Origin: Candidatus Uhrbacteria bacterium GW2011_GWE2_46_68
GTDB lineage: Bacteria; Patescibacteriota; Patescibacteriia; UBA9934; GWF2-40-263
Direction: 5' to 3'
NCBI GenBank assembly: GCA_001002765.1
Contig: LCMS01000001.1
Span: forward strand, 4,662 to 68,661
Length of the DNA stretch: 64,000 bases
Shown here in pieces: positions 2,816-43,535 of the stretch. A program made the position numbers and the translations under genes. Position 1 is the stretch's first letter; every line of letters begins with the position of its first letter. The notes beneath the pieces are model-generated. The model did not search any database. It saw only the letters and a list, made by a program, of their open reading frames with translations, and was not told the DNA's origin.

Positions 2816-4615
2816 TTAAGGGTTAAAGACGGTTGTTATTTTCCCTTGCATCATAACATCGCGCAAAGGTTCGGACGAGAGATCGGCCAGTTCTTCAAAG
2901 ATTTTCGCCGCCTCTTGATCACTCACGGGCGTAGGTTGTTTTTCGATAATGCGATAGGGGAGAATCCATAAGGAAAGATTATTTTTTTCTCGCAATACAC
3001 CCACGGCATACCCTTTGTCCGTCTCAGGCATGGGTTGATCAAAAATGAAATTGCCCATGGAATAAAATACAGGAACGTCATCAATCATCTCGGCTCCTTG
3101 GGTGACGTGTGGATGTCCACCCACAATAAGATCAGCCCCTGCCTCCACCATCAGTGATGCCAAGTATTGCTGACTTGTATCCGGCACGCGCGCATATTCG
3201 GTTCCCCAATGCGGATAGGCAATGACAAAAAGATTTTCCGCAGATGCCTCCTCGATTTGTGCAACCAAGGTTTTCCAACTGCTTTGGAATTGATTGAATC
3301 CCACAAAAGAAACGCTCGTATTTCCCACTTCCATATCAAGACGAGGCGCCGCATCGTTATAAGTGCCAAACCATTTGATCCCAAGACTTGTAAGGGTTTC
3401 CTGCGTGGAAGTCGTGGCCTCTTTCCCATAATCATCCGTGTGATTATTGGCAAGGCTCACAACATCAACATAGAGTGACAAAACTTCATCCGCCTCGATC
3501 GGGAACACAAAAGGGTAGGGGGCCTCATGCGCATTTTTACGTTCCCAATCTCCTACGGTTCCCTCATGATTGCCGATAACCGTGTGAGTACCCGATAAAA
3601 ATCGTTCCATGTTTTGCCAAGGATAATCATAGCCATGCTCTTCCATTTCGGTTCGCACACTGCGGTCAAGCATGATGTCGCCGATCATGGTGAGGCTCAT
3701 AAACGTACCGTTTTCCGGAGGGCCACTTGTGAAGTAGCCCAAGATATGGCTGGTATTATCTTCAGGATCATTTGTGGCTCCCATCAAAATAGAACTGCCG
3801 CGATAGAGCGGATGCCACACTTGCGAGCCGTGTTCCTTGTTAAACGCAAACAAAATACGCAGGAGCGCATTGGAATCGGTTTCGAGTTCGCATCCGCGAC
3901 AATCACCATGAGCAAGGGCGGTCAAAGTGACCTCGTCATGAAAGGCCGCGATGTACTCGGGAAGATAGTGGGACATGTCGGCGCTGCCTATCAACAAGGC
4001 ATTAGGAAGAGTTTGAGCAATGGTTGTGCCCAAGATCGTCGCTTGCTCAAGAGTGAGATTGTCATGGACAATAATGGGGACAAGTTTGGCGTTTGGAAAA
4101 GATTTTTTGATAAACGGGGTGAGGGCGGCAATGCCGTGTTCCTTTGCAAAAGCTTCTTCCTCTTGTGCAAGCTCGGTATTTTTTGACAACAGTTCAACTA
4201 CAGCTCCCTCATCTGTTTCCAAAATGCCATAAGGTGTTTGCCAATTTCCTAAAGAGATTTGAGCAAAAGATCGTCCAACCGAAAAATGATTGGGGCTTAT
4301 TAGGACGATGGTGTGCACATCTTCATTACCGATGGTATAAAAAGTTTCGGCGATTTTGTGAGCTACAAGGAGATGATGGGCTGCAAGCGCGCTTTGGACA
4401 GCATTTTTCTCCTCATGCCATTTCGCTTGCGCATAGGCGGACTCATAAAAGTTTTGATCTTGCAGGCCGGAGGAATAAAGAGGGGAATCGTCTTCATGTA
4501 TTAAAGAGGGGAGGAAAACATATTGAGATCCCAAAAAAATTCCCAAACAAAAAAGACCTGTGAAAAGACAGATCCAAACCATCCAAGAAAAAGAAGAGTG
4601 GGGGAGAAGGGTCAT
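2816..4615 (-). CDS. fusion protein with an N-terminal TM, a MEMO1-like domain and a CapA-family metallophosphatase domain
   Basis: The N-terminal half has MEMO-like motifs (LISPNHF, SADMSHY). The C-terminal half has CapA/PGA_cap motifs (LTMIGDIMLDRSV, ANNHTDDYG, YPHWGTEY, GGHPHVTQG, MGNFIFDQ). Confidence 0.55.
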   Translation of the reverse strand: MTLLPHSSFSWMVWICLFTGLFCLGIFLGSQYVFLPSLIHEDDSPLYSSGLQDQNFYESAYAQAKWHEEKNAVQSALAAHHLLVAHKIAETFYTIGNEDVHTIVLISPNHFSVGRSFAQISLGNWQTPYGILETDEGAVVELLSKNTELAQEEEAFAKEHGIAALTPFIKKSFPNAKLVPIIVHDNLTLEQATILGTTIAQTLPNALLIGSADMSHYLPEYIAAFHDEVTLTALAHGDCRGCELETDSNALLRILFAFNKEHGSQVWHPLYRGSSILMGATNDPEDNTSHILGYFTSGPPENGTFMSLTMIGDIMLDRSVRTEMEEHGYDYPWQNMERFLSGTHTVIGNHEGTVGDWERKNAHEAPYPFVFPIEADEVLSLYVDVVSLANNHTDDYGKEATTSTQETLTSLGIKWFGTYNDAAPRLDMEVGNTSVSFVGFNQFQSSWKTLVAQIEEASAENLFVIAYPHWGTEYARVPDTSQQYLASLMVEAGADLIVGGHPHVTQGAEMIDDVPVFYSMGNFIFDQPMPETDKGYAVGVLREKNNLSLWILPYRIIEKQPTPVSDQEAAKIFEELADLSSEPLRDVMMQGKITTVFNP

Positions 4616-4916
4616 AATGATTTTATCATACGGGTTTTTGGGGTGTTCGTCATTTCTTGTTTATCTTTTATAATGTGATGACTCTAGGGGAAGGTTTGAA
4701 ATGACGGGAGAAGAAAAGATGATAAATCACTCAAAAAACCCCAATAAAAACGCAAAAAGATGGGGTTTTTTCTTGACACATACGTTATTTTATGATACGT
4801 TGGCGCGTTCTAAAAAGTGCGTTTTTCAAAAGGAACGTCGTGCAATCAAGCGGTTTGATAGGCGTATAACATCTCCTCCTTGTTATACGTTCTGTCGAAC
4901 CACTTGAGTGCATGGC

Positions 4917-4961
4917 TAGAACGTAGGATTTGATTTATTGATCAAATCTTTCGTTCTAGTC
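4917..4961. repeat. imperfect inverted repeat (ctagaacgtaggatttgat / atcaaatctttcgttctag) upstream of the first high-GC island gene
   Basis: Seen directly; it contains the TCCTACGTT motif that recurs at 6509 and 9877. Confidence 0.5.
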
Positions 4962-5074
4962 AAAGGCACAGCTCCTTACAAGGAAGACTAACCCAAAACT
5001 AGAAGTTCGAAGCTCGACAACACCCCCACTACGGCGGAGAACCCGCCGTTTCCACTCGAAACAGGAGCCACACC

Positions 5075-6493
5075 ATGCGTACCTTCGTCACTCTCTTCGG
5101 TCTTTTCTTCGTTTTCGCCACCCCGGCCTTCGCGGCCGACTACTACCTCGACAATGACGGCGACGGCTACGGACAGACCACGGTCAAGCAGGCAAGCACC
5201 GCGACCGCGGCCCCCACGGGCTACGCGGCCGACAGTGGTGACTGCAATGACACCGACGCCGCGATCAACCCGGATGCCATCGAAGGGTGGGGTCAGGCCG
5301 GCGACAAGATCGACCAGGACTGCGACGGTTCCGACCGCCCCCTGCCCACGATCCCGGCCGATGCGGGGAGGAAGTTCAAGAAGAACTACCCCACGATGAA
5401 TGCCCTCGTCCTCGCGCGTACCTACGGGTACTGCGGGGTGACCGCGGGCTGCGTGATCAACAACACCGATGGCAAGTTCGAGGTCACCACGGCCGGCCAG
5501 GCCTTGTGTGACATGACCGTGTCGCGCGGATATTGGAAGCTCTGGGACGAAAACCAGTGCGCCCAGACCGCGGGCCTGATGTCCTCCCGTGGTGGTGGTC
5601 TCGGCAAGAGCACCGTCGAGAAGATGATCGCCGATGGGAACGCGCCCCTGGCGGCCCGCATCGATGAGGTCGCCCAGGCCTCCTACGACTTCGATATGCG
5701 GCTCGACGAGAGGATCGAAGTCCTGAACATCGCGGTCCTGACGGACAACAGGCGGCTCGATGACCTCGAGGAAGCGGCCGAGTTGTTCGACACCCGGCTC
5801 GATGACCTCGAGGAAGCGGACGTGACCCTGACTCGTGATATCAACGAGGTGTTCGATTCCCAGGTCGCCCTCGTTGGTGGCAGGAAGTCCGATGGCTCGG
5901 TCGTTCCGCCCGAAAAGTCCCGTATGAGTGTGGTGGAGGCAGGGGTCATGGACCTTTCTGACAACGGCATCATGGTGCTCGGTAGCTTTGGCGGAAACGT
6001 CGGCTACCAGCGGCCCTATGCCGTGCAGGAAGGCGGACGCTATGTCCGTGATGCGATGTTCGGTTCGGTCGGCGTCGGGGGTTTCCTTGGCGGCCGGTTC
6101 GGCCAGTTCCAGATGGGCGCTTCCGGCCTCGGAACCCGTACCTGGGATCCGAGCTATGGCAACAGCTTCACCCTCGGCCTCGAGGGCACCTACTTCCCCG
6201 GTGACATGGGCTTCGGCCTGTTCCTGGGTGGCGGGTCCCACGAGTCCGGAGGCAAGCCTCCGGTCGAGTCGACCGTGATCGGCCGCTACGGATTGGTCGG
6301 TTTGCAGGGCGTGTGGAACGCCCCGATCAACGGATACGGTATGTTCCAGATCGTCCCCCGCCTCTCGGCTGGCATCGAGGTCTTCGGGACCAAGGCCAGC
6401 GACGGTGAGAACGTGATCGTCGATGCCCAGCCCGGCGCCCTGCTGATGTTCTCCCTCGAGCTCCGCGCTGGCGCGGGACCCAAGGGCATCTAG
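5075..6493 (+). CDS. secreted protein with one MopE-type Cys/Asp motif, a coiled-coil middle and a Gly-rich C-terminal domain
   Basis: Signal peptide ending AFA|AD. Motifs DNDGDGYG and DCNDTDAAINP...DQDCDG. Heptad-like RLDDLEEA repeats. High-GC codon usage. Confidence 0.6.
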   Translation: MRTFVTLFGLFFVFATPAFAADYYLDNDGDGYGQTTVKQASTATAAPTGYAADSGDCNDTDAAINPDAIEGWGQAGDKIDQDCDGSDRPLPTIPADAGRKFKKNYPTMNALVLARTYGYCGVTAGCVINNTDGKFEVTTAGQALCDMTVSRGYWKLWDENQCAQTAGLMSSRGGGLGKSTVEKMIADGNAPLAARIDEVAQASYDFDMRLDERIEVLNIAVLTDNRRLDDLEEAAELFDTRLDDLEEADVTLTRDINEVFDSQVALVGGRKSDGSVVPPEKSRMSVVEAGVMDLSDNGIMVLGSFGGNVGYQRPYAVQEGGRYVRDAMFGSVGVGGFLGGRFGQFQMGASGLGTRTWDPSYGNSFTLGLEGTYFPGDMGFGLFLGGGSHESGGKPPVESTVIGRYGLVGLQGVWNAPINGYGMFQIVPRLSAGIEVFGTKASDGENVIVDAQPGALLMFSLELRAGAGPKGI

Positions 6494-6748
6494 ATAGATA
6501 GAGTCTTCCTACGTTACGAGGGCGAGTGGTTCAATCCCATCTCGCCCGTCTTGCAAAGGTGTTGAGCATTGCCTCGACAACTTTGCGAAGATTCGTTCAT
6601 TTACATTGGATTAAAAGAGAACCGGGGATGTGAGAGAAAAAGAATGAGAAATTTTTTTCCTTCACACCCCTGGTTTTACTAGGGATTTCGAAAGACCAAC
6701 CCAGTACGGGCGAGGTTTCCTCGCCCAACTTCAACAAGGAGTTCCACC

Positions 6749-7399
6749 ATGCGTTCTCTTCTTCTCTCCCTTCTTTCCCTCTCCGTCGCCTGCGGTCCGG
6801 CCTGGTATCAGGGTCCTGCTCTGGAAGACACCTGTGAGGAGGCCGACACGGATACCGATTCCGACAGCGACAGCGACACAGACTCGGACACCGACTCCGA
6901 CACCGACTCCGACACCGACGTGGTCGTCGAGACCGACCCGTGCGAGGGGAAGGATCTCTGCATCGACTTCGAGACCCCCGGTGGTGTCGAGGTTGAGAAC
7001 GTGTACTTCCATGCCCACGTGATCGACGATGATGACGACTTCGATGCCATGGTGGCCGGCACGGTCAACTGGCCGGACTGGACCATCAACCTGACCTTCG
7101 ATGACATCGAGGAAGCCAGCGTCGGCCTGGACACGGGCTACATCGCGGCGGTGCGGTACAACGTGTCGTTCTGCGACGGTCACGAGGATGGCGACGACGG
7201 TGATGCGGACCACTGCACGTGGCTCGCGTACGGTCGTACCAGCTCCGAGGCCTACCTCACGGCCGACACCGAGGTCTGGTATTGGGGAGAGGACTACGAT
7301 CCCGAGACCATGACCTGGTGCTACGACACCGAAGGTGACACCGACTCCAACGACGACGAGTGTGGAACCTCGGTCGTCGCTGGTCCCAGCGTCGACTGA
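6749..7399 (+). CDS. acidic lipoprotein with a (DT/DS)n repeat
   Basis: Lipobox LSVAC|G followed by DTDTDSDSDSDTDSDTDSDTDSDTD; start context ccATGCGT. Confidence 0.6.
   Translation: MRSLLLSLLSLSVACGPAWYQGPALEDTCEEADTDTDSDSDSDTDSDTDSDTDSDTDVVVETDPCEGKDLCIDFETPGGVEVENVYFHAHVIDDDDDFDAMVAGTVNWPDWTINLTFDDIEEASVGLDTGYIAAVRYNVSFCDGHEDGDDGDADHCTWLAYGRTSSEAYLTADTEVWYWGEDYDPETMTWCYDTEGDTDSNDDECGTSVVAGPSVD
6845..6919 (+). repeat. in-frame hexanucleotide repeat (GAC-WSC) of about 12.5 units inside the CDS
   Basis: gacacggataccgattccgacagcgacagc...gacaccgac read directly. Confidence 0.8.
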
Positions 7400-7416
7400 T
7401 CCACACGTTTTGCTAC

Positions 7417-7455
7417 GGCCCCCGTTGAGCTTTGCTCCGGGGGCTTTTCTGTTTC
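7417..7455 (+). terminator. Rho-independent terminator
   Basis: ggcccccg ... cgggggc stem followed by ttttctgtttc. Confidence 0.55.
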
Positions 7456-7537
7456 TTTAATCAAAAAATAGAACATAAACAAATCCCTCCGAAGTCCACG
7501 CCGATGGCGGGGAAGAAGGGGGGGATTCTGTTTCAAA

Positions 7538-7590
7538 AGGGGCGAACGGCCGTTTTGTACGGTAGGGGCGAACGGCCGTTCGCCCCTACC
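7538..7590. repeat. GC-rich perfect palindrome ggtaggggcgaacggccgttcgcccctacc with an adjacent half-copy
   Basis: The 30-nt self-complementary sequence was read directly; it belongs to a family of six copies. Confidence 0.9.
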
Positions 7591-7616
7591 TTAGCCAAAA
7601 AGCGACCGTGATGGCC

Positions 7617-7645
7617 TTGACAAAATGACGTTTTTTTGTTATAGT
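7617..7645 (+). promoter_or_regulatory. near-consensus sigma70 promoter TTGACA-N17-TATAGT
   Basis: ttgaca at 7617-7622, a 17-nt spacer, then tatagt at 7640-7645. Confidence 0.6.
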
Positions 7646-7651
7646 AGGACG

Positions 7652-7809
7652 TTCAGAATTTGGCAAAAGTACACGGATTTGCGCCATGTTTACAAGGATA
7701 ATGCTTGCGAAGACCTGTTACGAAGCGGGTTTAGCCGGCAACACACGAGGGTGAGAGTAGGGAATCCAAAGGGATTTCCATATCCACACCCTCAAACGGG
7801 TGTTTTTTC
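7652..7809 (+). ncRNA. candidate structured RNA (sRNA or riboswitch-like leader) ending in an intrinsic terminator
   Basis: About 160 nt between the consensus promoter and the terminator acaccc-tcaaac-gggtgt-TTTTTT. An alternative helix gagggtg (7747-7753) with caccctc (7787-7793) overlaps the terminator 5' arm. No ORF is present. Confidence 0.4.
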
Positions 7810-7810
7810 A

Positions 7811-7862
7811 TAATTTCCAATCCCTTCATTCATTAGAAATTGGAAATTAGTAATTGGAAATT
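7811..7862. repeat. AT-rich palindromic repeat (aatttccaat ... attagaaattggaaattagtaattggaaattt), copy R5
   Basis: Near-identical to 32637-32682 and the inverse of 31933-31975 and 32566-32610. Confidence 0.8.
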
Positions 7863-8048
7863 TACCCACCTCCTTGTCCCCATAGTGCAACTCCGTGACT
7901 TGAGGAAGTTCTTTCCAATAGAACGGAGAAACAGCAAAAAGATCAGTCAACCATACGGGCAAGGTTCTATCCCTGCCCACCCACACCAAACCCGCACGCT
8001 TGCGTGCGTCACGCTTCGCGTTCCAACTACCCCAAGGAGAAAAACACC

Positions 8049-9857
8049 ATGCGTTCCCTTCTTCTCGCTACTCTCATCTTCACCTCGGGCTGCAACCCAG
8101 CTTTCATCTTCGACGGCACCTCCACTGACACCGGCAGCGTCATCGACGACGACACTGGCATCCAGATCGAGGACACCGACATCGAAGATGGCTTCGAGCA
8201 GGGCCCCCAGATCGATCCCGACGACCTCGACAACCTCTTCGACGAGGACGAGACCGACGCGGACGAGGACGGCAGCCCGGCTTCCGAGGACTGCGACGAT
8301 CACGACGACGATGTGTACCCTGGTGCCACCGAGAAGTGCGACGGCGATGACAATGACTGCAACGGCGAAGTGGACGAGGGCTGCTCCGACAGCTCCTACA
8401 CCTACTACCGCGACAGCGACAGCGACGGGTACGGCGACAGCGCCGTGACCACGACCGTCACCACGGCCACGGCCCCCACGGGCTACGTCGCAAACGATGA
8501 CGACTGCGATGACATGAGCGCAGCCGTGAGCCCCGCCGACGCCGAGATCTGCAACAGCATCGATGACGACTGTGATGGCAGCGTGGACGAGGGCGTCACC
8601 ACCACCTTCTACGCCGACACCGATACCGACACCTATGGCAACGTGGCCTCCACCAAGGCCGCGTGCAGCCAGCCCACGGGCTACGTCGCAAACGATGATG
8701 ACTGCAACGACAGCACCTCCTCGGCCCACCCGGGCGCGACTGAGAGCTGCAATGACAGCATCGACAACGACTGCGATGGCGATACCAACGAGGGCTGCAC
8801 CGGCAGTGCCTCGGACAACGATGGCGACGGCTACACCGAGGACGGCGGCGACTGCGATGACACCGACAACAGCGTCCACCCGGGCGCCACCGAGACCTGC
8901 GACAGCGAGGACGACGACTGCGACGGCATCGTGGATGAGAGCGTGACCGTGACCTACTACCGCGACAGCGACAGCGACGGCTACGGCGTGGCGACCACCA
9001 CGATCGCGGCCTGCTCCGCACCGAGCGGGTACGTCACCAACTCGACCGACTGCAATGATGTGAGCGGAAGCGTCCACCCGGGCGCGACCGAGACCTGCAA
9101 CTACACGGATGACGATTGCGACGGATCCACGGACGAGGGCGTGATCAACACGTACTACCGCGACAGCGACAGCGACGGCTATGGCGTGAGCACCACGACC
9201 ACGGCCGCCTGTTCCGCTCCCACGGGCTACGTCACGAACTCGACTGACTGCAACGACACCAGTGCGGCCGTGAGCCCCGCCGATGTCGAGATCGACAATG
9301 ACATCGATGATGACTGCGACGGTACGATCGACGAGGGCTTCACCAGCACCTCGGATCCCTGCAGCGGGCAGCTCGCCTGCTTCGTGAACGATGACAGCGA
9401 CAGCTACAACGATGTCCTCTACGTCCATATGTCCCTCTTCACCCAGGGCTCGACCTACCAGACCCACGACGCGGTCGTGGTCGGGATCGGCGGCTCCTGG
9501 GACCTGAATGACGACAACGTGGCCGTGATCGAAGATGGTTCGTGGTTCGTGATCGACCCCAGCACCTGGTCGTGCGGAGTCGAACAAGATGTCACCCTCG
9601 TGTCCTCCCTGGACAACGACGGCGTCGATCTGTTCGATGAGTACGACTGCGATACGGATGAAGAGCTCGAGACGTCCGCCTGCGACGGAGTAGTTTCCTA
9701 CGCCACCTGGTCTTCCGAGGCCATCTGGCTCCAGAATTACGCCTTCTGCACGGGCGGATCGACGATCGCCGGCCAGATCTGTGAAAGCCAGGGCACCACG
9801 TCGTACCTCTTCTCCCTGGAGGTCGACTGCAGCACCCGCGAGTTCCGGGCGGATTAG
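8049..9857 (+). CDS. lipoprotein with about 7 MopE-type Cys/Asp-rich repeats and a distinct C-terminal domain
   Basis: Start chosen at MRSLLLATLIFTSGC|N (lipobox) with aaggag 10 nt upstream. Repeats read DCDD.DDDV.PGA.E.C.G.DNDC.G.VDEG, alternating with YYRDSDSDGYG. Confidence 0.7.
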   Translation: MRSLLLATLIFTSGCNPAFIFDGTSTDTGSVIDDDTGIQIEDTDIEDGFEQGPQIDPDDLDNLFDEDETDADEDGSPASEDCDDHDDDVYPGATEKCDGDDNDCNGEVDEGCSDSSYTYYRDSDSDGYGDSAVTTTVTTATAPTGYVANDDDCDDMSAAVSPADAEICNSIDDDCDGSVDEGVTTTFYADTDTDTYGNVASTKAACSQPTGYVANDDDCNDSTSSAHPGATESCNDSIDNDCDGDTNEGCTGSASDNDGDGYTEDGGDCDDTDNSVHPGATETCDSEDDDCDGIVDESVTVTYYRDSDSDGYGVATTTIAACSAPSGYVTNSTDCNDVSGSVHPGATETCNYTDDDCDGSTDEGVINTYYRDSDSDGYGVSTTTTAACSAPTGYVTNSTDCNDTSAAVSPADVEIDNDIDDDCDGTIDEGFTSTSDPCSGQLACFVNDDSDSYNDVLYVHMSLFTQGSTYQTHDAVVVGIGGSWDLNDDNVAVIEDGSWFVIDPSTWSCGVEQDVTLVSSLDNDGVDLFDEYDCDTDEELETSACDGVVSYATWSSEAIWLQNYAFCTGGSTIAGQICESQGTTSYLFSLEVDCSTREFRAD

Positions 9858-9966
9858 CCGTTCCGTTCGTCTCCGTTCCTACGTTATACGCGAGCCCCTT
9901 GTCTTTGTTCACACTTCGGTGTGTTCATTGACCAGGGGCTCTTGTTGTTTTCAAGGTTGATGATCC

Positions 9967-10018
9967 GGTAGGGGCGAACGGCCGTTCGCCCCTACCGTAC
10001 CGGCCGTTCGCCCCTACG
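9967..10018. repeat. GC-rich palindrome copy P2 plus a half-copy
   Basis: ggtaggggcgaacggccgttcgcccctacc followed by gtaccggccgttcgcccctacg. Confidence 0.9.
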
Positions 10019-10219
10019 ATTCATTGACATTTTTGCCAAAATATGGTAAAAACTTAGGCCAATTTTGGCTGAAAATATCGCTGATTTGACATAAAAACCT
10101 CTGGTTTAGGGATTTTTATGTCAGGTCAGTTCAGAGGTTCCTTCCACCATCGTGCGTTACGACCTGGCGCGCGATATTTCCAACAATGACCCGACCCCCA
10201 ACCCTCAAGGGAGGTTTCC

Positions 10220-12955
10220 ATGCGTCTTTTTCTGTGTGGTCTCTTTCTCATCTCCGGCTGCGAGTTTTTCGGCCCGGCCAGCGTTTTCGACGACACCAAG
10301 CCCGATGATTCGGGCACTATCGACACCGGTGCCCCCTGCGAAGAGCAGGCCTGGTACCGCGACAGCGACGGCGATGGGTACGGCATCTCGGTTTCCGAAA
10401 CCTGGGCCTGTGAGGCCCCCGAAGGCTTCGTGGCCAACGGCAAGGACTGCGATGACGACGACCCTGCGGTCAACCCCGGAGCGGTCGAAGTCTGCAACGG
10501 GATCGATGACAACTGCGACGGTGAGATCGACAACGATCCCGACGGCGACGACATCTGGTACATCGACGCGGACAGCGATGGCTACGGCAACCCGGACATG
10601 GCCCAGGACTGCGATGGCTATGACTGGTTCGTGAGCCAGGCGGGCGACTGCAACGATCTCGACCCCGCGGTCAACCCCGCGGCCACCGAGCTGTGCGACG
10701 AAGTCGACAACGACTGCGACGACACGATCGACGAGGATGATGCGGCCGATGCCACGCCCTGGTACGAGGACTTCGATGGCGATCTCTACGGCAACCTTGC
10801 CGTGGTGCGTGACGCCTGTGCGGAGCCCGAGGGCTACGTGGCCGACGCAACCGACTGCGATGACACGGACGCGGGTGTGAACCCCGACGCCAGCGAGTTC
10901 TGCGACGAGAAGGACAACAACTGCAACAGCGAAGTGGACGAGGGTGTGACCCTCACCTTCTACGCCGATGCTGATGCCGATCTCTACGGCGACGTGGGCA
11001 ACACCACGGAGGCCTGCCTCCTGACCGACGGCTACACCGAGGACGCAACCGACTGCGATGACGATGATCCCGCGGTCAACCCCGGCGCGGTCGAAGACTG
11101 CAATGGCATGGATGACGACTGCAACGGCGAAGTGGACGAGGGCGTGACCCTCACCTTCTACGTCGATGTCGACGCCGATCTCTATGGCGACGCGATGGTC
11201 TACGTCGAGTCCTGCGAAGCCCCCACGGGCTATGTCGCGGACGCGACCGACTGCAACGATGCCACGGCAAGCGCCTACCCGGGCGCTGACGAGTACTGCG
11301 ACACCCTCGACAACGACTGCGACAGCGTGGTCGACGAGAGCGACGCGATCGATGCCGGCGACTGGTTCGCGGATGCGGATGGCGACCTCTACGGTGATGT
11401 GACCATGGCCTTGCGCGCCTGCATGGCGCCCATGGGCTATGTCGCGGACGCGACCGACTGCAACGATGACACTGCGAGCGCCTACCCCGGCGCCAGTGAG
11501 TACTGCGACACCCTCGACAACGACTGCGACAGCGTGGTCGACGAGAGCGACGCGATCGATGCCCCGACCTGGTACACCGATCTGGACACGGACGGCTACG
11601 GCGACGCGATCACGGCCACCTTCTCTTGCACCGCCCCTGCGGGCATGATCGAGGACGGCACGGACTGCGATGACCTGGACCGTTCGGTTCATCCCAATGC
11701 CACCGAATTCTGTGATGAGATGGACAATGACTGCGATGGCCTGGTCGACGAAGAGCGGGGCAACCTGTTTTTCGCCGATGCGGATGGCGACGGTTTCGGT
11801 GACCCCTCGGTCTCTTCGGAGGCCTGTGCGGCTCCCTTGACCTATGTCGCTGACGACACGGACTGCGATGACACCGACGCGGGTGTGAATCCCGGCGCCG
11901 ACGAGCTCTGCAACGGGCTCGATGACGACTGCGATGGCACGCTGGACGAGGATGCCACGGAAATGAGCGCCTGGTACCTGGACTACGACAACGATTCCTT
12001 TGGGAATTGGATGGCGCAGACCTGGTCGTGTGATCAGCCCGCAGGCTATGTGGCTGACGCCACGGACTGCAATGATCTTCTCTCCTCGGTTTTCCCAAGC
12101 GCCTCCGAGACCTGCAACGGGCTCGATGACGACTGCGACGGCACCACCGATGAGGGGGTGAAGACCACTTTCTACGCGGATGCGGACGCGGACGGCTACG
12201 GCAACGTGGCTGTGACCGAGGAAGCTTGCGATCCCTCCGAAGGGTTCGTCTATGATTCCACGGACTGCGACGATGCCGATGTGGATGTGAACCCCGGCGC
12301 CGACGAGTTCTGCAACAGCCTCGATGACAACTGTGATGGCACGGTGGACGAGGATGATGCGGTCGACGCCCCGACCTGGTACGCGGACAGTGATCTCGAC
12401 CTCTACGGTGATGAGAACAACACCCTGGAGGTGTGCACCGCTCCCGCGGGCTACATCGCCGACGCGACCGACTGCGATGACACCGATGATCTCGTGAACC
12501 CCGAGGGGATCGAGATCTGCGATGACACGATCGACAACGACTGCGACGGGGACACCGACCTTTCCGACGAGTGCCTCTATGAAGGAACCTACACGGGAAC
12601 CTTCGAGGCCGATGTTACCTTGACCGCCTTCGGGATCACGGACACCTGTGAGGGTGCTGTGGAGCTCGATGTTGCGATCGACGGGGAGCCCATGATCTTC
12701 GGTGAGGCGTCATGTGCCTTCTCGGGATTGTTCGCCACCTATTACGCTGACGACATCATCGGCGCGATCGAGGGAGACATCTTCTCGGACATGGATGCCG
12801 AGGGCGATCTCTACGATGACGACGAGATCTTCTCGTCCATCTGGACCGGGATTTTCGACACCGATGAGCTCGACGCCACGTTTGTGGGTGAGGGTACCCT
12901 CCTTGGGTACGCCTACACCTATGACGGGACGTTCGAGACGATTTACACGCCCTAG
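10220..12955 (+). CDS. large lipoprotein (911 aa) with at least 12 MopE-type Cys/Asp-rich repeats
   Basis: Lipobox LISGC|E and RBS gggagg. Repeating DCDD.D..VNPGA.E.CNG.DDDCDG..DE ... WY.D.DGDLYGD units. Confidence 0.7.
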   Translation: MRLFLCGLFLISGCEFFGPASVFDDTKPDDSGTIDTGAPCEEQAWYRDSDGDGYGISVSETWACEAPEGFVANGKDCDDDDPAVNPGAVEVCNGIDDNCDGEIDNDPDGDDIWYIDADSDGYGNPDMAQDCDGYDWFVSQAGDCNDLDPAVNPAATELCDEVDNDCDDTIDEDDAADATPWYEDFDGDLYGNLAVVRDACAEPEGYVADATDCDDTDAGVNPDASEFCDEKDNNCNSEVDEGVTLTFYADADADLYGDVGNTTEACLLTDGYTEDATDCDDDDPAVNPGAVEDCNGMDDDCNGEVDEGVTLTFYVDVDADLYGDAMVYVESCEAPTGYVADATDCNDATASAYPGADEYCDTLDNDCDSVVDESDAIDAGDWFADADGDLYGDVTMALRACMAPMGYVADATDCNDDTASAYPGASEYCDTLDNDCDSVVDESDAIDAPTWYTDLDTDGYGDAITATFSCTAPAGMIEDGTDCDDLDRSVHPNATEFCDEMDNDCDGLVDEERGNLFFADADGDGFGDPSVSSEACAAPLTYVADDTDCDDTDAGVNPGADELCNGLDDDCDGTLDEDATEMSAWYLDYDNDSFGNWMAQTWSCDQPAGYVADATDCNDLLSSVFPSASETCNGLDDDCDGTTDEGVKTTFYADADADGYGNVAVTEEACDPSEGFVYDSTDCDDADVDVNPGADEFCNSLDDNCDGTVDEDDAVDAPTWYADSDLDLYGDENNTLEVCTAPAGYIADATDCDDTDDLVNPEGIEICDDTIDNDCDGDTDLSDECLYEGTYTGTFEADVTLTAFGITDTCEGAVELDVAIDGEPMIFGEASCAFSGLFATYYADDIIGAIEGDIFSDMDAEGDLYDDDEIFSSIWTGIFDTDELDATFVGEGTLLGYAYTYDGTFETIYTP

Positions 12956-12983
12956 CTACGGCTATAGGAGGCGGATAACACGA

Positions 12984-13016
12984 AGCGGCAGCTGACGACC
13001 AGCGCCGCTTTTTTCG
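12984..13016 (+). terminator. Rho-independent terminator
   Basis: agcggc-N14-gccgct followed by tttttt. Confidence 0.6.
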
Positions 13017-13026
13017 TTGAGAAGTA

Positions 13027-13221
13027 GGGGTCAGGTCCGGACATCGGACTTTTTGGAGAGACAATGAAAATTTAACGCATTTTTTACTTTTTTTAGAAGA
13101 TATTCATCACTTTTTTATCCATCAATGCATTAAAACTGAAAAAATATAAGGAGCATTTTCCTCAAAATAAGAGAAGTATTTTTGATCTTTCTTGAAAAAG
13201 TCCGATGTCCGGACCTGACCC
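13027..13221. mobile_element. MITE-like element (195 bp) with 28-bp perfect terminal inverted repeats GGGGTCAGGTCCGGACATCGGACTTTTT
   Basis: TIRs read directly and the interior is AT-rich and non-coding. It shares the outer GGGGTCAGGTC with the element at 52441-52597. Confidence 0.55.
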
Positions 13222-13260
13222 CACAACCCGATTTGTTTTGTGCTACAATACACTTAAGAT

Positions 13261-14814
13261 ATGGTGGAATTTCGATCTCTTTACGCCCACGCGGAGGAAC
13301 ATATCACATTGCTCACTTTTGGATTATTCATCCTGCTTGGAGCTTTGCTTATTTTGCAAAGCTTATTTTCTCCATTTTTGATTTTGTCGATCCTTCTTGT
13401 GATCGGCTTTTTTATTTTGAGTTTTTATCGCCCGTTGTGGACCCTTGCCTTTGTTGCCATCTATCTTCCTTTTGAAAGTGTGCTCCTTAAGTTTATTCCC
13501 GAGGATATTTATGTGTTCGCGCGTTACTTTTCCGAAGGGCTTATTTATCTTCTTTGCGCGGTCGTTCTTTGGCATATCCTTTCAGGAAAAATAAAACTAC
13601 GACACACACCGATCGATTTTCCTTTCATCTTATTCGTGATTATTCTTCTTTCCTCCGCACTTATTAATGTTGTAGAACCCACCGTAGCCGTTTTAGGAAT
13701 CCGTCAGATCATTCGGTTCATTCTGGTTTTTTATCTTGTCTCTTACCTGCGTCCGTCCAAAACCTATATCAAACGCCTCACCGCCGCGATGTTTGCGGTT
13801 GTATTGGGAGAATCTCTCATCGGCATCACCCAGTCGTTTGTTGGAGAATCTATGGACGCTTTTTTACTGCCTTCGGACATGCGTTCGCTTGGAGACATCA
13901 CTCTTACTTCGGGTGTTTCCCAATTTTGGGATCCTGGGTCGCGAGTATTCGCCACTCTTGGACGTTATGATCGCCTTGGAAATTTTCTTTATTTGTTCCT
14001 TTTGATGGGCGTGGGATTCTTGTATGAGGCGCGCAGTTGGGTGGATCGTCGACAATTATGGCTTCTTTTTGCTTTGGGGCTTCCCGCTTTGCTGCTCACG
14101 TATTCCCGTTCATCTTGGTTTGCATTTTTGTTCGGGTTTTTATTTGTGAGCCTTTGGATCAAACGTGATCGTCGCGTGGCGATTGCGTTTGCCGGATTTT
14201 TGATTGTGATCGCCTCTTATCTCACACTCACTGGATTACAAGTACGATTCATCACCGAGGCTCCGGGGCAAACCTTGACCGAACGTTTTTATGAGACGTT
14301 TAGTTATGCCAGGTGGCGAGGGGAATATATCGGACTTGGACGTGTATTTTGGTTCGTGCAGACGATCACGACCGTGGTGCCTGCATCTCCGTTGTTTGGA
14401 TTTGGTCCGGGACAATATGGTGGAGGAGCCGTGGCTGCACTTGGAAACGCGGTGGTATATGAGAGGTTGGGATTACCCTATGGCGTGTTTGGCACCGAAG
14501 GCATGATTGATAACAATTGGTTTTCTCTGTGGGGAGAAAGTGGAACGCTCGGCATCATTTTTTACGGATGGATGTATATCGGACTTTTTCTTTATGCCTT
14601 GCGCGTCTATCATCGCAGTCAAGACCCGACCGTTCGTGCTATGGCCATGGGACTTGCGGCCATACTTCTTGGCGTGGGATTCAATGCGTTTACATCGACC
14701 GTTTTGGAAATTCGTACGCTTGCATTTTATCTTTGGCTCTACGCGGGCTTTTTGTATGTGTTGGATCAAAAACGTCCGCGTGCGAAACATCGTCGCTTAA
14801 AAGAGGAGATATGA
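13261..14814 (+). CDS. polytopic membrane protein, O-antigen ligase/polymerase-like
   Basis: About 12 predicted TM segments and a position next to two GT4 genes; the family assignment is tentative. Confidence 0.45.
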   Translation: MVEFRSLYAHAEEHITLLTFGLFILLGALLILQSLFSPFLILSILLVIGFFILSFYRPLWTLAFVAIYLPFESVLLKFIPEDIYVFARYFSEGLIYLLCAVVLWHILSGKIKLRHTPIDFPFILFVIILLSSALINVVEPTVAVLGIRQIIRFILVFYLVSYLRPSKTYIKRLTAAMFAVVLGESLIGITQSFVGESMDAFLLPSDMRSLGDITLTSGVSQFWDPGSRVFATLGRYDRLGNFLYLFLLMGVGFLYEARSWVDRRQLWLLFALGLPALLLTYSRSSWFAFLFGFLFVSLWIKRDRRVAIAFAGFLIVIASYLTLTGLQVRFITEAPGQTLTERFYETFSYARWRGEYIGLGRVFWFVQTITTVVPASPLFGFGPGQYGGGAVAALGNAVVYERLGLPYGVFGTEGMIDNNWFSLWGESGTLGIIFYGWMYIGLFLYALRVYHRSQDPTVRAMAMGLAAILLGVGFNAFTSTVLEIRTLAFYLWLYAGFLYVLDQKRPRAKHRRLKEEI

Positions 14815-17326: not shown

Positions 17327-17376
17327 GGTAGGGGCGAACGGCCGTCTGTAGGGGCGAACGGCCGTTCGCCCCTACG
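17327..17376. repeat. GC-rich palindrome copy P3 (a half-copy plus a full copy) in a divergent promoter region
   Basis: ggtaggggcgaacggccgtc followed by tgtaggggcgaacggccgttcgcccctacg. Confidence 0.9.
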
Positions 17377-25441: not shown

Positions 25442-26294
25442 GCTTTCCACACAAAACGCATGGCAAAAAATTGCCACTGACCTTGAGTTGCCCTTGGAGA
25501 ATACTGTGAGTGGTTTTTCTGTACGTGAATATCTGGATTATGGCATTGGATATGCCGCGCGTCTTGCCGTAAAACCGGTAGCCGTTTCTTTGACAGCTTT
25601 TGTTTTTGTGGTAGCTGGAGGGTTGGGTATCACAAATGCTTCTTTTTACAGCCTCCCGGGAGATGCCATGTACCCGGTCAAGTTATCCATGGAGCATCTT
25701 CAGCTTTCCATTTCTTCCGACGATGCCCAGCGTGCCAAATTACAAGTGGAGTTTGCCGGTCGCCGACTTGAGGAAATGACCGATCTAGCTGCTCGCTCAG
25801 GCGATCAGGTTTCCAATATTCAATACGCCATGAATCAATTTCGTCAGGAGACTAGAGTCATTCAAGATGAATTGACCTCTGATTCTACCGATTTGGCTCG
25901 TGAAGTCAGTCGTAAGGTGGAAATCTACAATTCAACCGTTTCCGCTTCCCCCGATCTTAAGACCGAACTTGTGGGAGAAGAAGTACAAGAGATTATTGAA
26001 GCGACTCAAGATCAGGCTGTAGAAGTTTTCTTGTCCACACATGAATCTACGCAAGATGCGGAAAGCGCCAAAGAGCTCGATTACACGTTTGATCAAGAAT
26101 ATTCAGCACTCGAGAGTGAATTGGAAACCTTCACAGCCGATCAAGAAAAAGATTTTTTTACACAATTCAATACAACTTCCACAGCCTATCTCATTTTAGC
26201 TGATCAACTGCGCGATCAAGCCGCTTATCGTCGTGCGTTTCAAATTTTGAGCGAAATAGAGATGTTCCTCCAAGTTTTCAAGGAAACCTCTTAG
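25374..26294 (+). CDS. anti-sigma-factor-like membrane protein (DUF5667-like)
   Basis: Immediately follows and overlaps the sigma gene. It has a single TM (VSLTAFVFVVAGGLGI) and an acidic coiled-coil ectodomain. Confidence 0.45.
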   Translation: MNHRTFLQTLQELKETTRSTDLELSTQNAWQKIATDLELPLENTVSGFSVREYLDYGIGYAARLAVKPVAVSLTAFVFVVAGGLGITNASFYSLPGDAMYPVKLSMEHLQLSISSDDAQRAKLQVEFAGRRLEEMTDLAARSGDQVSNIQYAMNQFRQETRVIQDELTSDSTDLAREVSRKVEIYNSTVSASPDLKTELVGEEVQEIIEATQDQAVEVFLSTHESTQDAESAKELDYTFDQEYSALESELETFTADQEKDFFTQFNTTSTAYLILADQLRDQAAYRRAFQILSEIEMFLQVFKETS

Positions 26295-26502
26295 GTTTCC
26301 CTTCGATCCGGGTATCTTTTCCAAGGATATCCGGATCGGGGCTGACCCGACTTCTTCTTTTCTACGCAAGTGGAAAAAGAGGAGTGAATGTGTTTTTTAC
26401 AGGTGGATGATAGAAAAGTCGAGGCTTGAAAAAGCCATTGTCCACTTTAATTCCGAAAAAAGGTTCGCCCGGTATAACCCCCGGGTAAAAAATTACTTTC
26501 TT

Positions 26503-30854: not shown

Positions 30855-30884
30855 GGTAGGGGCGAAGGGCCCTTCGCCCCTACC
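30855..30884. repeat. GC palindrome variant P4 (ggtaggggcgaagggcccttcgcccctacc)
   Basis: A perfect palindrome whose centre differs from the other copies by compensatory substitutions. Confidence 0.9.
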
Positions 30885-34269: not shown

Positions 34270-34294
34270 TCACCCCTTATATGACCTATAAGAC

Positions 34295-40687: not shown

Positions 40688-40722
40688 ACTTCTTCTATGA
40701 TATTATACCTGAAAGAGACGTT

Positions 40723-43526: not shown

Positions 43527-43535
43527 TTTGACTTT

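What the first reader, a model, noticed from the sequence alone, without database searches (positions are those of the whole stretch)
4990..12960. High-GC island with four paralogous MopE-type Cys/Asp-rich repeat proteins or lipoproteins
GC content and codon usage shift abruptly between about 4.99 and 12.96 kb. C-ending codons such as GAC, GGC, TGC and ACC dominate there, whereas the flanking genes favour A/T-ending codons. The island holds four plus-strand genes. All begin with the same context ccATGCG(T). Three carry lipoboxes (LSVAC|G, FTSGC|N, LISGC|E), and the first has a type I signal peptide. Their bodies are tandem 60-70-aa units of the form DCDD.D..VNPGA.E.CNG.DDDCDG..DE alternating with WY.D.DGDGYG. 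This is the 'putative metal-binding / MopE-type' cysteine-rich repeat known mostly from myxobacteria and methanotroph surface copper-binding proteins. The 911-aa member has at least 12 repeats, and the C-terminal non-repeat domains differ between paralogues. Such a family in a low-GC small genome suggests lateral acquisition or strong diversifying use as surface metal-binding or adhesion modules. Long antisense ORFs across the island are GC artefacts.
Basis: partly seen in the sequence, partly recalled or inferred. Interest (0 to 1): 0.75.

Follow-up and report, generated by a model that had tools for sequence, protein, structure and literature searches.

The report
Uhrbacteria surface-protein cluster with odd codons
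Four neighbouring genes for secreted, cysteine- and aspartate-rich surface proteins of a tiny groundwater bacterium (Candidatus Uhrbacteria) use GC-rich codons that the rest of its genome avoids, and diverged relatives have kept this oddity so long that it is neither an assembly error nor a leftover of recent gene transfer.

Summary
The GC jump is real, but it is not a contiguous island. It is a codon-usage jump confined to four plus-strand genes: GC3 is 0.81-0.86 there and 0.37-0.57 in every other ORF of the window. The spacers between the genes are host-like (GC 0.41-0.50) and carry a host palindromic repeat. Eight independent assemblies are 100% identical across the junctions, so this is not a chimera.

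Only g3 (6 units) and g4 (11 units) are true repeat paralogues of the PF11617 family. g1 has one degenerate unit and g2 has none. The similarity to MopE covers about 30 residues and does not include its copper site.

The same gene order, structured leader RNA and codon bias recur in four further Uhrbacteria lineages. Their synonymous sites are essentially randomised relative to the window, so the bias is actively maintained. It is not un-ameliorated foreign DNA.

Best reading: this is a vertically inherited locus encoding one secreted protein and three lipoproteins. These form acidic, disulfide-stapled, probably Ca2+-loaded surface modules. The genes have strong promoters and structured leaders and are probably very highly expressed. 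The cause of the codon bias is unresolved. The long antisense ORFs are by-products of the bias.

The parts
4773..4801 (+). Promoter of g1: TTGACA-N14-TGA-TACGTT (extended -10 type)
   Evidence: There are only 3 matches to TTGACA-N14-TGN-TANNNT in the 64 kb window, against 0.02 expected. The site is conserved in L009, L011, L045 and L046.
4802..5074 (+). Structured 5' leader of g1. Hairpin 1 spans 4840-4913 and has an invariant apical loop UCUCCUCCU (4872-4880). Hairpin 2 spans 4914-4961 and has a variable tip. A conserved GCUCCUU (4968-4976) can pair with the ribosome-binding site AGGAGC (5060-5066). A TACGG motif plus hairpin lies at 5030-5055.
   Evidence: The leader is 84% identical to L009, against 69% for the coding sequence. 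Of 61 predicted pairs, 16 show compensatory changes, against 4.0 +/- 1.7 in shuffles (0/500) and 0-3 in slid controls. The minimum free energy is -105.5 kcal/mol with z = -7.35. No Rfam family matches.
5075..6493 (+). g1: a 472-aa secreted protein. It has a type I signal peptide and one degenerate repeat unit (residues 23-85). These are followed by a small alpha/beta domain, a coiled coil and a Gly-rich C-terminal domain of 8-9 long beta strands.
   Evidence: The AF2 model has low confidence (pLDDT 41), so only its secondary structure was used. The part outside the repeat unit has only about 10 relatives among 1.84 billion representative proteins. GC3 is 0.83.
6749..7399 (+). g2: a 216-aa lipoprotein. 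It has an acidic (D-T/S)n linker and an orphan Cys-containing domain of about 150 aa. It contains no MopE-type unit.
   Evidence: Orthologues occur in L009 and L011. GC3 is 0.81.
7557..7593 (.). REP-like palindrome GGTAGGGGCGAACGGCCGTTCGCCCCTACC. A second copy lies at 9967-10000.
   Evidence: The same element also occurs outside the locus at 17351, with variants at 30859 and 34255. The chance expectation is 0.00 (I2/I4).
7617..7810 (+). Leader or small-RNA unit upstream of g3. A consensus promoter lies at 7617-7645. It is followed by an RNA of about 155 nt and an intrinsic terminator at 7786-7803 plus a T run. GAGGGTG (7747-7753) can pair with the 5' arm of the terminator (7787-7793), which is an attenuator-like layout.
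   Evidence: The promoter matches 11 of 12 positions plus TG, and the terminator was found in the same scan. The unit is conserved in L009 and L045 and absent from L011. No Rfam family matches.
7891..7980 (+). Conserved proximal leader of g3: hairpin CTCCGT...ACGGAG (7891-7928) and a TACGG motif plus hairpin (7954-7980).
   Evidence: It is conserved in W, L009, L011 and L045. L045 carries a compensatory change to TTCCGT...ACGGAA. The TACGG motif also lies upstream of g1 and g2.
8049..9857 (+). g3: a 602-aa lipoprotein with 6 PF11617 cores, 4 of them in full units of about 66 aa, and an orphan C-terminal domain of about 170 aa.
   Evidence: PF11617 scores 168 bits over 6 stretches. GC3 is 0.86. 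Orthologues are 71-90% identical.
10024..10219 (+). g4 promoter (TTGACA-N14-TGG-TAAAAA, 10024-10052) and leader with hairpin 10081-10129.
   Evidence: (I3).
10220..12955 (+). g4: a 911-aa lipoprotein with 11 tandem units of 66-69 aa. Each unit carries a DxDxDG-type loop, 4 Cys and a PF11617 core. An orphan C-terminal domain of about 125 aa follows.
   Evidence: PF11617 scores 328 bits over 11 stretches. Regex counting gives 11 + 11 motifs. The DNA repeat period is 198-207 nt at 60-81% identity. The AF2 model of two units has pLDDT 96.3. GC3 is 0.81.
12984..13015 (+). Terminator-like hairpin plus T run after g4. Similar hairpins follow g1 (6520-6547), g2 (7419-7452) and g3 (9892-9952).
   Evidence: Read directly from the sequence. 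These were not flagged by the simple scan, because their loops exceed 8 nt.
13027..13222 (.). 196-bp AT-rich element bounded by perfect 28-bp inverted repeats, at the right border of the locus.
   Evidence: (I1). It is present only in contigs of this strain. Its function is unknown.

Best explanation
This is a conserved, vertically inherited cell-surface protein locus of a Candidatus Uhrbacteria (Patescibacteria/CPR) genome.

PROTEINS. g1 is exported through Sec with a cleavable signal peptide. g2, g3 and g4 are lipoproteins, tethered to the membrane by their N-terminal Cys. g3 and g4 are rods of 6 and 11 compact modules of about 66 residues. Each module carries a DxDxDG-type acidic loop and four invariant cysteines. 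The modules are inferred to be disulfide-stapled and Ca2+-loaded. They hold lineage-specific C-terminal domains away from the cell, for adhesion or envelope building.

EXPRESSION SIGNALS. g1, g3 and g4 each have a near-consensus extended -10 promoter and a long structured leader. All four genes have a strong ribosome-binding site and a terminator. This implies strong and regulated expression.

THE 'HIGH-GC ISLAND'. It is a synonymous-codon phenomenon restricted to the four coding sequences. It is kept at equilibrium (GC3 about 0.8-0.9) by a gene-specific force. The most likely force is selection on synonymous sites linked to the expression of these abundant proteins.

SHOWN: the coordinates, the repeat architecture, the codon bias, its confinement to coding sequence, its persistence across lineages, the structured g1 leader, and the absence of chimerism.

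INFERRED: Ca2+ binding, disulfides, surface-rod and adhesion role, high expression, and selection as the cause of the bias.
For: ORGANISM AND ASSEMBLY
- Source names place the genes in Candidatus Uhrbacteria.
- Eight assemblies from NCBI, JGI, ENA and Logan are 100% identical over 5.9-22.7 kb spanning the junctions.
- A host palindrome occurs both inside and outside the locus.

CODON BIAS
- GC3 is 0.81-0.86 in the four genes and 0.37-0.57 elsewhere. The spacers have GC 0.41-0.50.
- The bias is uniform along each gene, including the non-repeat domains.

PERSISTENCE
- Syntenic g1-g2-g3-g4 clusters occur in L009 and L011, and g1-g2-g3 occurs in the deeper lineage L045. Their GC3 is 0.75-0.92, against 0.40-0.57 in the flanking genes.
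- At conserved residues, codons are identical about as often as chance predicts: observed 0.54-0.70 against 0.51-0.59 expected. For L011 versus L045 the values are 0.54 and 0.53, at 37% amino-acid identity.
- A host-like leader RNA (GC below 0.5) is shared by all five lineages, so one ancestral locus is the simplest history.

AGAINST A STRAND-SYMMETRIC CAUSE
- Four-fold sites are C 0.56-0.66, G 0.21-0.32, T 0.07-0.14 and A 0.01-0.05.

NOT INTRINSIC TO THE FAMILY
- MopE-type genes in low-GC Flavobacteriales have host-like GC3.

EXPRESSION SIGNALS
- Two of the three perfect extended -10 promoters in the 64 kb window lie in this locus.
- The g1 leader folds with z = -7.35.
- L21 and the 1285-aa surface protein show a mild bias in the same direction.

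PROTEINS
- Pfam results are and motif counts.
- The AF2 model of two repeat units has pLDDT 96.3.
- The DxDxDG calcium-binding motif is established knowledge (Rigden and Galperin 2004, from memory).
Against: - Genes expected to be highly expressed show no comparable bias. In the window, L21, two pilins and MetK have GC3 of 0.45-0.47. In L045, L20 and IF3 have 0.42-0.45. Ordinary expression-linked codon selection therefore does not obviously explain a jump to 0.85.
- G-ending Lys, Glu and Gln codons are preferred as strongly as C-ending codons. This looks more like a general GC preference than adaptation to tRNAs.
- The closest non-Uhrbacteria relative of g4 sits in a high-GC organism, and its MopE gene shows the same C>G asymmetry. 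A foreign signature therefore cannot be told apart from convergent selection by composition alone.
- No expression, metal-binding or localisation data were available.
- The g1 structure model is poor.
- All Uhrbacteria lineages compared belong to one fairly narrow clade.
Confidence: 0.6

Rival explanations
1. Horizontally acquired island. The genes came from a high-GC donor such as Myxococcota, and their present GC3 is simply foreign composition that has not yet ameliorated.
For: - The codon usage resembles that of a high-GC organism.
- The nearest non-Uhrbacteria homologue of g4 (P0035, 49% identity) lies on a contig with GC3 of about 0.9 throughout.
- MopE-related proteins are most abundant in Myxococcota.
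- Other Patescibacteria MopE genes show intermediate GC3 of 0.69-0.74, which could be read as stages of amelioration.
Against: - The locus is shared, in the same gene order and with the same host-like leader, by four further lineages.
- Synonymous codons are at or near random expectation between lineages, yet GC3 stays at 0.75-0.92. Neutral decay over that much turnover should have brought GC3 close to 0.45.
- The spacers are fully host-like and carry host repeats and consensus host promoters.
- The window holds no integrase, no tRNA and no flanking direct repeats.
- MopE genes in low-GC Flavobacteriales have fully host-like GC3.
Confidence: 0.15
2. GC-biased gene conversion or a local mutational bias. 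Under this reading, frequent recombination in a repeat-rich, fast-evolving surface-antigen locus drives GC upward.
For: - The island proteins diverge at least as fast as the flanking proteins: 52-76% amino-acid identity, against 66-91% for the flanks.
- Repeats offer substrates for conversion.
- All synonymous classes shift towards GC, including Lys, Glu and Gln.
Against: - The bias stops at the boundaries of the coding sequences, while the spacers between the genes stay at GC 0.41-0.50.
- It is equally strong in g2 and in the non-repeat domains.
- Four-fold sites are strongly strand-asymmetric, with C two to three times G and T several times A. A strand-symmetric process does not predict this.
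- DNA repeats are only 60-81% identical, so there is no sign of recent homogenisation.
Confidence: 0.1
3. Copper-handling proteins of the MopE/CorA type. The repeats would bind copper at the cell surface, as in methanotrophs.
For: The Pfam family is named Cu-binding_MopE, and g3 and g4 hit it strongly.
Against: [quoted passage not shown]
- g4 gives no PDB hit with phmmer.
- A repeat profile aligns only to MopE* residues 14-44 at E = 0.03. This is outside the Cu(I) site (His132, His203, Kyn130) and within the N-terminal region not resolved in the crystal, whose model starts at Gly47 (PMC3423442).
- g4 has 1 His in 911 residues.
- The window holds no methane or ammonia monooxygenase context.
Confidence: 0.05
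4. Assembly chimera. A high-GC fragment from another organism was joined into a low-GC contig.
For: There are abrupt compositional steps at about 4.99 and 12.96 kb.
Against: - Identical junctions appear in eight assemblies from different pipelines and samples.
- Composition switches eight times, at every gene boundary, rather than twice.
- A host REP-like palindrome lies inside the locus.
- The same arrangement occurs in four other lineages.
Confidence: 0.01
5. Overlapping antisense genes. The long minus-strand ORFs (4988-6241, 7947-9587, 10205-11692) would be real, and their need to stay open would drive the avoidance of A at third positions.
For: The codon-aligned antisense frame is stop-free over all of g1-g3 and over 830 of the 911 codons of g4. 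JGI gene callers annotated these ORFs.
Against: - Resampling synonymous codons from the observed usage gives equally long open antisense frames in 65-89% of trials.
- Keeping the antisense frame open needs only TTA, CTA and TCA to be avoided, yet all A- and T-ending codons are depleted.
- The sense products have signal peptides, strong Pfam hits and a pLDDT 96 model.
Confidence: 0.02

Closest known systems
PF11617 'putative metal-binding motif' / 'MopE-related' repeat proteins of Myxococcota, Bacteroidota and many uncultured bacteria
   Same: g3 and g4 carry the same unit of about 66 aa (a DxDxDG-like loop plus C.D....P.A.E.C...D.DCDG). They are 40-57% identical to thousands of such proteins. 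They are secreted or surface proteins, with variable C-terminal domains.
MopE / CorA secreted copper-binding proteins of methanotrophs (PDB 2VOV)
   Same: They share one motif of about 30 residues (MopE* residues 14-44) and are surface-associated or secreted.
   Different: There is no similarity to the MopE* core. The His/His/kynurenine Cu(I) site is absent, and His is nearly absent from g4. The shared motif lies in the N-terminal part of MopE* that is not resolved in the crystal.
Calcium-binding DxDxDG repeats such as thrombospondin type 3 repeats (comparison from memory, not tested by alignment)
   Same: Both are Asp-rich DxDxDG loops interleaved with disulfide-forming cysteines in tandem extracellular modules with little regular secondary structure. 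The model shows only a few short strands.
   Different: No fold match to any solved structure was detected. The unit length and Cys pattern differ. Calcium binding has not been shown.
Classical horizontally acquired genomic islands
   Same: There is a sharp compositional contrast with the flanks, and the cargo is surface proteins.
   Different: The contrast is limited to coding sequence, and the spacers are host-like. There are no mobility genes, no tRNA and no border repeats. The locus is conserved in synteny across lineages, and its composition is stable despite synonymous saturation.
S-layer and other abundant envelope-protein genes with long stabilising 5' leaders (general knowledge, e.g. 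Lactobacillus slpA)
   Same: The genes have strong promoters, long highly structured 5' untranslated leaders, strong ribosome-binding sites and their own terminators.
   Different: No S-layer domain (SLH and the like) is detected. Abundance is not measured. The codon bias is far stronger than the mild bias seen in the ribosomal protein gene of the same genome.

Membership tests
Pfam PF11617 (Cu-binding_MopE / putative metal-binding motif) repeat proteins | The whole-protein HMM score is above the gathering threshold (27 bits). | tested here: met
   g4 scores 327.8 bits (11 stretches) and g3 scores 168.2 bits (6 stretches). g1 scores 25.5 bits, below threshold, and g2 has no hit. Membership therefore holds for g3 and g4 only.
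Pfam PF11617 repeat proteins | Tandem units with conserved Cys and Asp positions. | tested here: met
   g4 has 11 core motifs and 11 DxDxDxYG motifs, and g3 has 6 and 4. In a 51-sequence alignment of two-unit segments, 8 Cys and many Asp positions are invariant.
MopE/CorA copper-binding proteins of methanotrophs | Homology across the MopE* core domain. | tested here: not met
   phmmer of g4 against the PDB gives no hit at E <= 0.01. The repeat profile matches only 2VOV residues 14-44 at E = 0.03.
MopE/CorA copper-binding proteins of methanotrophs | A Cu(I) site formed by two His and a Trp-derived kynurenine. | tested here: not met
   The ligands are His132, His203 and Kyn130 (PMC3423442), which lie outside the shared motif. 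g4 has 1 His in 911 aa.
Bacterial lipoproteins (Lgt/LspA pathway) | An N-terminal signal peptide ending in a lipobox [LVI..][ASTVI][GAS]C. | tested here: met
   g2 reads ...LSVAC and g4 reads ...LISGC, and both match the pattern. g3 reads ...FTSGC from its true ATG at 8049 (read). g1 has no lipobox.
Bacterial lipoproteins (Lgt/LspA pathway) | Lgt and LspA are present in the genome. | not tested
   Neither was found among the window ORFs scanned. The rest of the genome was not available.
Horizontally acquired genomic island | Composition deviates from the host over the whole inserted segment. | tested here: not met
   Only the four coding sequences deviate. The spacers have GC 0.41-0.50 and carry host repeats.
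Horizontally acquired genomic island | Mobility signatures are present (integrase, tRNA target, flanking direct repeats). | tested here: not met
   There is no tRNA in the 64 kb window and no flanking direct repeats. The flanking genes are Memo/PGA_cap and Wzy_C.
Horizontally acquired genomic island | Distribution among close relatives is patchy. | tested here: not met
   The locus is present in synteny in all four related lineages recovered.
DxDxDG-type calcium-binding modules | A DxDxDG loop sequence. | tested here: met
   The motif [WFY][YF]xDxDxDx[YF]G occurs in 11 of 11 g4 units, in 4 g3 units and in 1 g1 unit.
DxDxDG-type calcium-binding modules | Bound Ca2+, or a fold shared with known Ca2+-binding repeats. 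| tested here: inconclusive
   The confident model (pLDDT 96.3) has no structural neighbour in the PDB. Metal binding cannot be tested with these tools.
Known RNA families (Rfam 15) for the leaders | A covariance-model match. | tested here: not met
   There is no match at gathering thresholds in the window. At E <= 1 in 4600-13300 there are only generic hairpin hits.

The most novel reading that the evidence does not exclude
The four genes encode the dominant envelope or attachment proteins of this Uhrbacteria clade. They are deliberately kept in a separate 'codon dialect' (GC3 about 0.85 in a genome at about 0.45) by selection on synonymous sites. That selection could act on decoding by a reduced tRNA set or on mRNA survival. 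Expression would be gated by previously undescribed structured leader RNAs. The g1 leader has an anti-Shine-Dalgarno element, and an attenuator-like unit lies upstream of g3. If true, this would be a long-term, gene-specific compositional equilibrium that mimics a foreign island. It would also provide a first molecular handle on the CPR cell surface.
Probability: 0.2. Interest if true: 0.75.

Novelty: new variant of a known kind. Interest (0 to 1): 0.58.

Why it matters
(1) GC3 and codon-usage outliers are routinely read as recent horizontal transfer. Here an extreme outlier is confined to coding sequence and is stable across lineages whose synonymous sites have turned over. It is therefore a concrete counter-example and a test case for what maintains gene-specific composition in a slow-growing, genome-reduced bacterium.

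(2) The surface of CPR/Patescibacteria cells mediates their presumed attachment to hosts, and it is molecularly almost unknown. This locus names four candidate envelope proteins, including a module predicted with confidence that has no solved structural relative.

(3) The 'Cu-binding_MopE' label, and the 'regulator of chromosome condensation' names carried by these proteins in public records, are misleading for this very large protein family.

(4) Gene callers replaced two of the real genes with antisense ORFs in public annotations.

(5) Two conserved leader RNAs with no Rfam family are candidates for new cis-regulators.

Tried and rejected
- Two scans of the GTDB species-representative genomes found nothing: the g1 alignment and a gapped leader pattern. 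The clade appears not to be represented there.
- A scan of metagenome contigs with the g2 alignment found nothing that tblastn confirmed.
- A 17-mer from the leader gave 29 loci, of which only L034 (the same contig as L009) was real. The rest were chance matches.
- The AF2 model of g1, built from a 4-sequence alignment, was too poor for fold search (pLDDT 41).
- The afdb50 fold library was not available.
- Relaxed Pfam scans of the non-repeat domains gave only noise. NCBIfam gave only low-complexity matches to SD-repeat adhesins in the g2 linker.
- Literature searches for codon usage in Uhrbacteria or CPR, and for maintained GC3 outliers, found nothing relevant.
- SNP-based polarisation failed, because all eight assemblies of this strain are 100% identical.
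- The unpolarised W-L046 differences (25 against 27) are uninformative, because parallel decay would also look symmetric.
- Rejected explanations: ordinary high-expression codon bias as a sufficient cause, a property intrinsic to MopE genes, chimerism, and real antisense genes.

Full report
WHAT IS THERE

The window comes from a Candidatus Uhrbacteria genome (Patescibacteria/CPR). Exact-sequence look-ups place g1, g3, g4 and the flanking genes in GW2011_GWF2_46_218-type and UBA assemblies. GC content rises from about 0.45 to about 0.62 between 5.0 and 13.0 kb.

Four plus-strand ORFs fill that region:
- g1, 5075-6493, 472 aa
- g2, 6749-7399, 216 aa
- g3, 8049-9857, 602 aa (the real start is the ATG at 8049, not the upstream GTG)
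- g4, 10220-12955, 911 aa

The shift is almost entirely at third codon positions. GC3 is 0.81-0.86 in these genes and 0.37-0.57 in every other real ORF of the window. GC1 and GC2 are only slightly raised. Third positions are A 3%, C 59%, G 24% and T 14%, against A 22%, C 23%, G 21% and T 34% elsewhere. AAA, ATA, TTA, CTA, AGA and CGA are never used. The bias is uniform along each gene, including the non-repeat domains and g2.

The four spacers, and the two borders, have GC of 0.39-0.50. So the 'island' is really four high-GC3 coding sequences separated by host-like DNA.

NOT A CHIMERA

Eight assemblies are 100% identical to the window over 5.9-22.7 kb spanning the junctions. They are one NCBI UBA assembly (read at two overlapping loci), one JGI metagenome, one ENA assembly and four Logan assemblies of separate runs. 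A 30-bp palindrome (GGTAGGGGCGAACGGCCGTTCGCCCCTACC) lies in two of the internal spacers. It also occurs outside the locus at 17351, 30859 and 34255, against a chance expectation of 0.00.

THE PROTEINS

Pfam PF11617 hits g4 with 11 stretches (328 bits) and g3 with 6 (168 bits). It hits g1 once, below threshold (25.5 bits against 27), and g2 not at all. Motif counting gives 11 complete units of 66-69 aa in g4. Each unit has a [WFY][YF]xDxDxDx[YF]G loop, four Cys and the C.D....P.A.E.C...D.DCDG core. g3 has six cores and four full units. g1 has one unit that has lost two of its cysteines. At the DNA level the period is 198-207 nt and copies are 60-81% identical.

g2 shares only its signal peptide with g3 and g4. 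The C-terminal domains of g3 and g4 are unrelated. No non-repeat region matches any Pfam family. g2, g3 and g4 have lipoboxes, and g1 has a type I signal peptide. 'Four paralogues' is therefore too strong. The locus holds two repeat paralogues, one protein with a single relic unit, and one unrelated lipoprotein.

The g1 model is poor (pLDDT 41). Its predicted secondary structure suggests a small alpha/beta domain, a long coiled coil and 8-9 long beta strands in the Gly-rich C-terminus. The part of g1 outside the repeat unit has only about ten relatives among 1.84 billion representative proteins.

IS IT 'MopE-TYPE'?

Only nominally.
- g4 finds nothing in the PDB with phmmer.
- A profile of the repeat finds MopE* (2VOV) at E = 0.03, and only over residues 14-44.
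- According to PMC3423442, the Cu(I) site of MopE* is His132, His203 and kynurenine-130. The crystal model starts at Gly47, and the N-terminal region is flexible and disordered.
- g4 has one His in 911 residues.

A MopE-like copper site is therefore excluded. The DxDxDG-type loops, 18% Asp and four invariant Cys per unit point instead to Ca2+-stabilised, disulfide-stapled extracellular modules. This is an inference from general knowledge of DxDxDG motifs and has not been shown.

IS IT A RECENT TRANSFER?

Full-length relatives of g1 and the best hits of g4 led to syntenic clusters in other lineages.
- L009 is named 'Patescibacteria group bacterium' and carries genes of 461/219/615/1200 aa.
- L011 carries genes of 474/218/605/1190 aa.
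- A profile search led to a deeper lineage, L045. Its g1-like protein is 39% identical to the window's. It is followed by g2-like and g3-like genes, and the left-hand context is different.
- L046 is a close relative, at 88% identity.

In every lineage the locus genes have GC3 of 0.75-0.92, with A3 as low as 0.01. Their neighbours, including L20 and IF3, have GC3 of 0.40-0.57. In the window, L009 and L045 the spacers have GC 0.35-0.50; in L011 they are higher, at 0.48-0.62.

At conserved amino acids, the fraction of identical codons between lineages is close to what random draws from the codon usage would give. Observed values are 0.54-0.70 and expected values are 0.51-0.59. L011 against L045 gives 0.54 against 0.53. 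Synonymous sites have thus turned over roughly completely while composition stayed put. Neutral amelioration towards the host value of about 0.45 should have erased most of the excess.

The locus also has no integrase, tRNA or border repeats. MopE-type genes in low-GC Flavobacteriales have host-like GC3 of 0.28-0.37, so the bias is not intrinsic to the family. An ancient foreign origin remains possible. The nearest non-Uhrbacteria homologue of g4 lies in an organism with GC3 of about 0.9. Even so, the present composition needs a force that maintains it.

WHAT MAINTAINS IT?

This is unresolved. Against gBGC or local mutation bias:
- the effect stops at coding-sequence boundaries;
- four-fold sites are strongly strand-asymmetric, with C 0.56-0.66, G 0.21-0.32, T 0.07-0.14 and A 0.01-0.05 in all four lineages.

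For selection linked to expression:
- Two of the only three perfect TTGACA-N14-TGN-TANNNT promoters in the 64 kb window lie upstream of g1 and of the g3 leader, against 0.02 expected. g4 has a near-identical one.
- All four genes have AGGAG-type ribosome-binding sites and their own terminators.
- The next most C-biased genes in the window are a 1285-aa putative surface protein and ribosomal protein L21.

Against a simple expression explanation:
- L21, L20, IF3, the pilins and MetK have ordinary GC3 of 0.42-0.47;
- G-ending Lys, Glu and Gln codons are favoured as strongly as C-ending ones.

Other Patescibacteria MopE lipoprotein genes also have raised GC3. The values are 0.74 against 0.34-0.50, 0.69 against 0.52-0.59, and 0.69 against 0.48-0.56. 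The phenomenon may therefore be wider in this group.

ANTISENSE ORFs

TTA, CTA and TCA are essentially absent, so the codon-aligned antisense frame has almost no stops. Resampling synonymous codons from the observed usage gives open antisense runs as long as those observed in 65-89% of trials. The ORFs are by-products of the bias. JGI and ENA gene calls nevertheless annotated them in place of g1 and g3.

REGULATORY RNA

The region upstream of g1 (4734-4936) is 84% identical to L009, against 69% for the coding sequence. Across five sequences it forms two long hairpins. Of 61 pairs, 16 show compensatory changes, against 4.0 +/- 1.7 in shuffles (0/500) and 0-3 in slid controls. Hairpin 1 has an invariant UCUCCUCCU loop.

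The whole 5' UTR folds at -105.5 kcal/mol (z = -7.35). In that fold a conserved GCUCCUU segment pairs with the ribosome-binding site.

Between g2 and g3 lie a consensus promoter, an RNA of about 155 nt and an intrinsic terminator. The unit is conserved in L009 and L045. A GAGGGTG segment can pair with the 5' arm of the terminator, which is an attenuator-like layout. Rfam has no family for either element. The covariation rests on few sequences, and the structures were derived from the same alignments.

VERDICT

The interpretation needs correcting.
- This is not a contiguous foreign island of four paralogous copper-binding proteins.
- It is a conserved Uhrbacteria surface-protein locus: two repeat lipoproteins, one unrelated lipoprotein and one secreted protein.
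- Its coding sequences alone are held at a GC-rich codon equilibrium.
- The proteins are new members of a huge but structurally uncharacterised family.
- The persistent, coding-sequence-restricted codon bias and the leader RNAs are the unusual parts.

Noticed in passing
window 4802-5074: Conserved, strongly structured 5' leader of g1 with no Rfam family. It has two long hairpins, an invariant UCUCCUCCU apical loop and a GCUCCUU element that can sequester the ribosome-binding site.
   Followed up: partly
window 7617-7810: A promoter, an RNA of about 155 nt and an intrinsic terminator lie between g2 and g3, with possible antiterminator pairing (7747-7753 with 7787-7793). The unit is conserved in L009 and L045 and missing in L011. 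It could be an attenuator/riboswitch-like leader or a separate small RNA.
   Followed up: partly
window 5030, 6705, 7954: A TACGG motif followed by a short GC-rich hairpin lies 40-95 nt upstream of the start codons of g1, g2 and g3, and of their orthologues. It could be a processing or 5'-stabiliser element (sequences).
   Followed up: partly
window 7557-7593, 9967-10000, 17351-17372, 30859-30880, 34255-34276: A REP-like perfect palindrome, GGTAGGGGCGAACGGCCGTTCGCCCCTACC, is dispersed in intergenic regions. One Logan contig (L005) breaks exactly at a copy.
   Followed up: partly
window 13027-13222: A 196-bp AT-rich element with perfect 28-bp terminal inverted repeats lies between g4 and the Wzy-like gene. 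It is found only in this strain's contigs. It may be MITE-like or a long regulatory hairpin.
   Followed up: partly
L002, L003 (public annotations of this same contig): Automated gene calling annotated the antisense ORFs (417 aa and 546 aa) instead of g1 and g3. NCBI and UniRef names such as 'Regulator of chromosome condensation' are transferred mis-annotations.
   Followed up: yes
L049 5473-8457; L047 8001-10649; L048 1-1795: MopE-type lipoprotein genes of other Patescibacteria also have GC3 above their neighbours: 0.74 against 0.34-0.50, 0.69 against 0.52-0.59, and 0.69 against 0.48-0.56. Flavobacteriales members (L013, L014) do not.
   Followed up: partly
window 25668-30264 (and L047 1563-7718): A DUF5667 protein followed by a giant orphan protein (1285 aa here, 1401 aa in L047) recurs in two Patescibacteria loci. 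In L047 an ECF-type sigma factor gene precedes them. The giant protein is the most C-biased gene outside the locus.
   Followed up: no
window 35788-53168: A type IV pilus gene cluster (PilB, PilC, PilM, two prepilin-type proteins and an LVIVD beta-propeller) sits together with several orphan ORFs and a PAS/HAMP histidine kinase.
   Followed up: no
window 2816-4615 (- strand): The left flank is a fusion of a Memo-like (AmmeMemoRadiSam system protein B) domain and a PGA_cap (CapA) domain with an N-terminal membrane segment. It is conserved next to the locus in L011.
   Followed up: no
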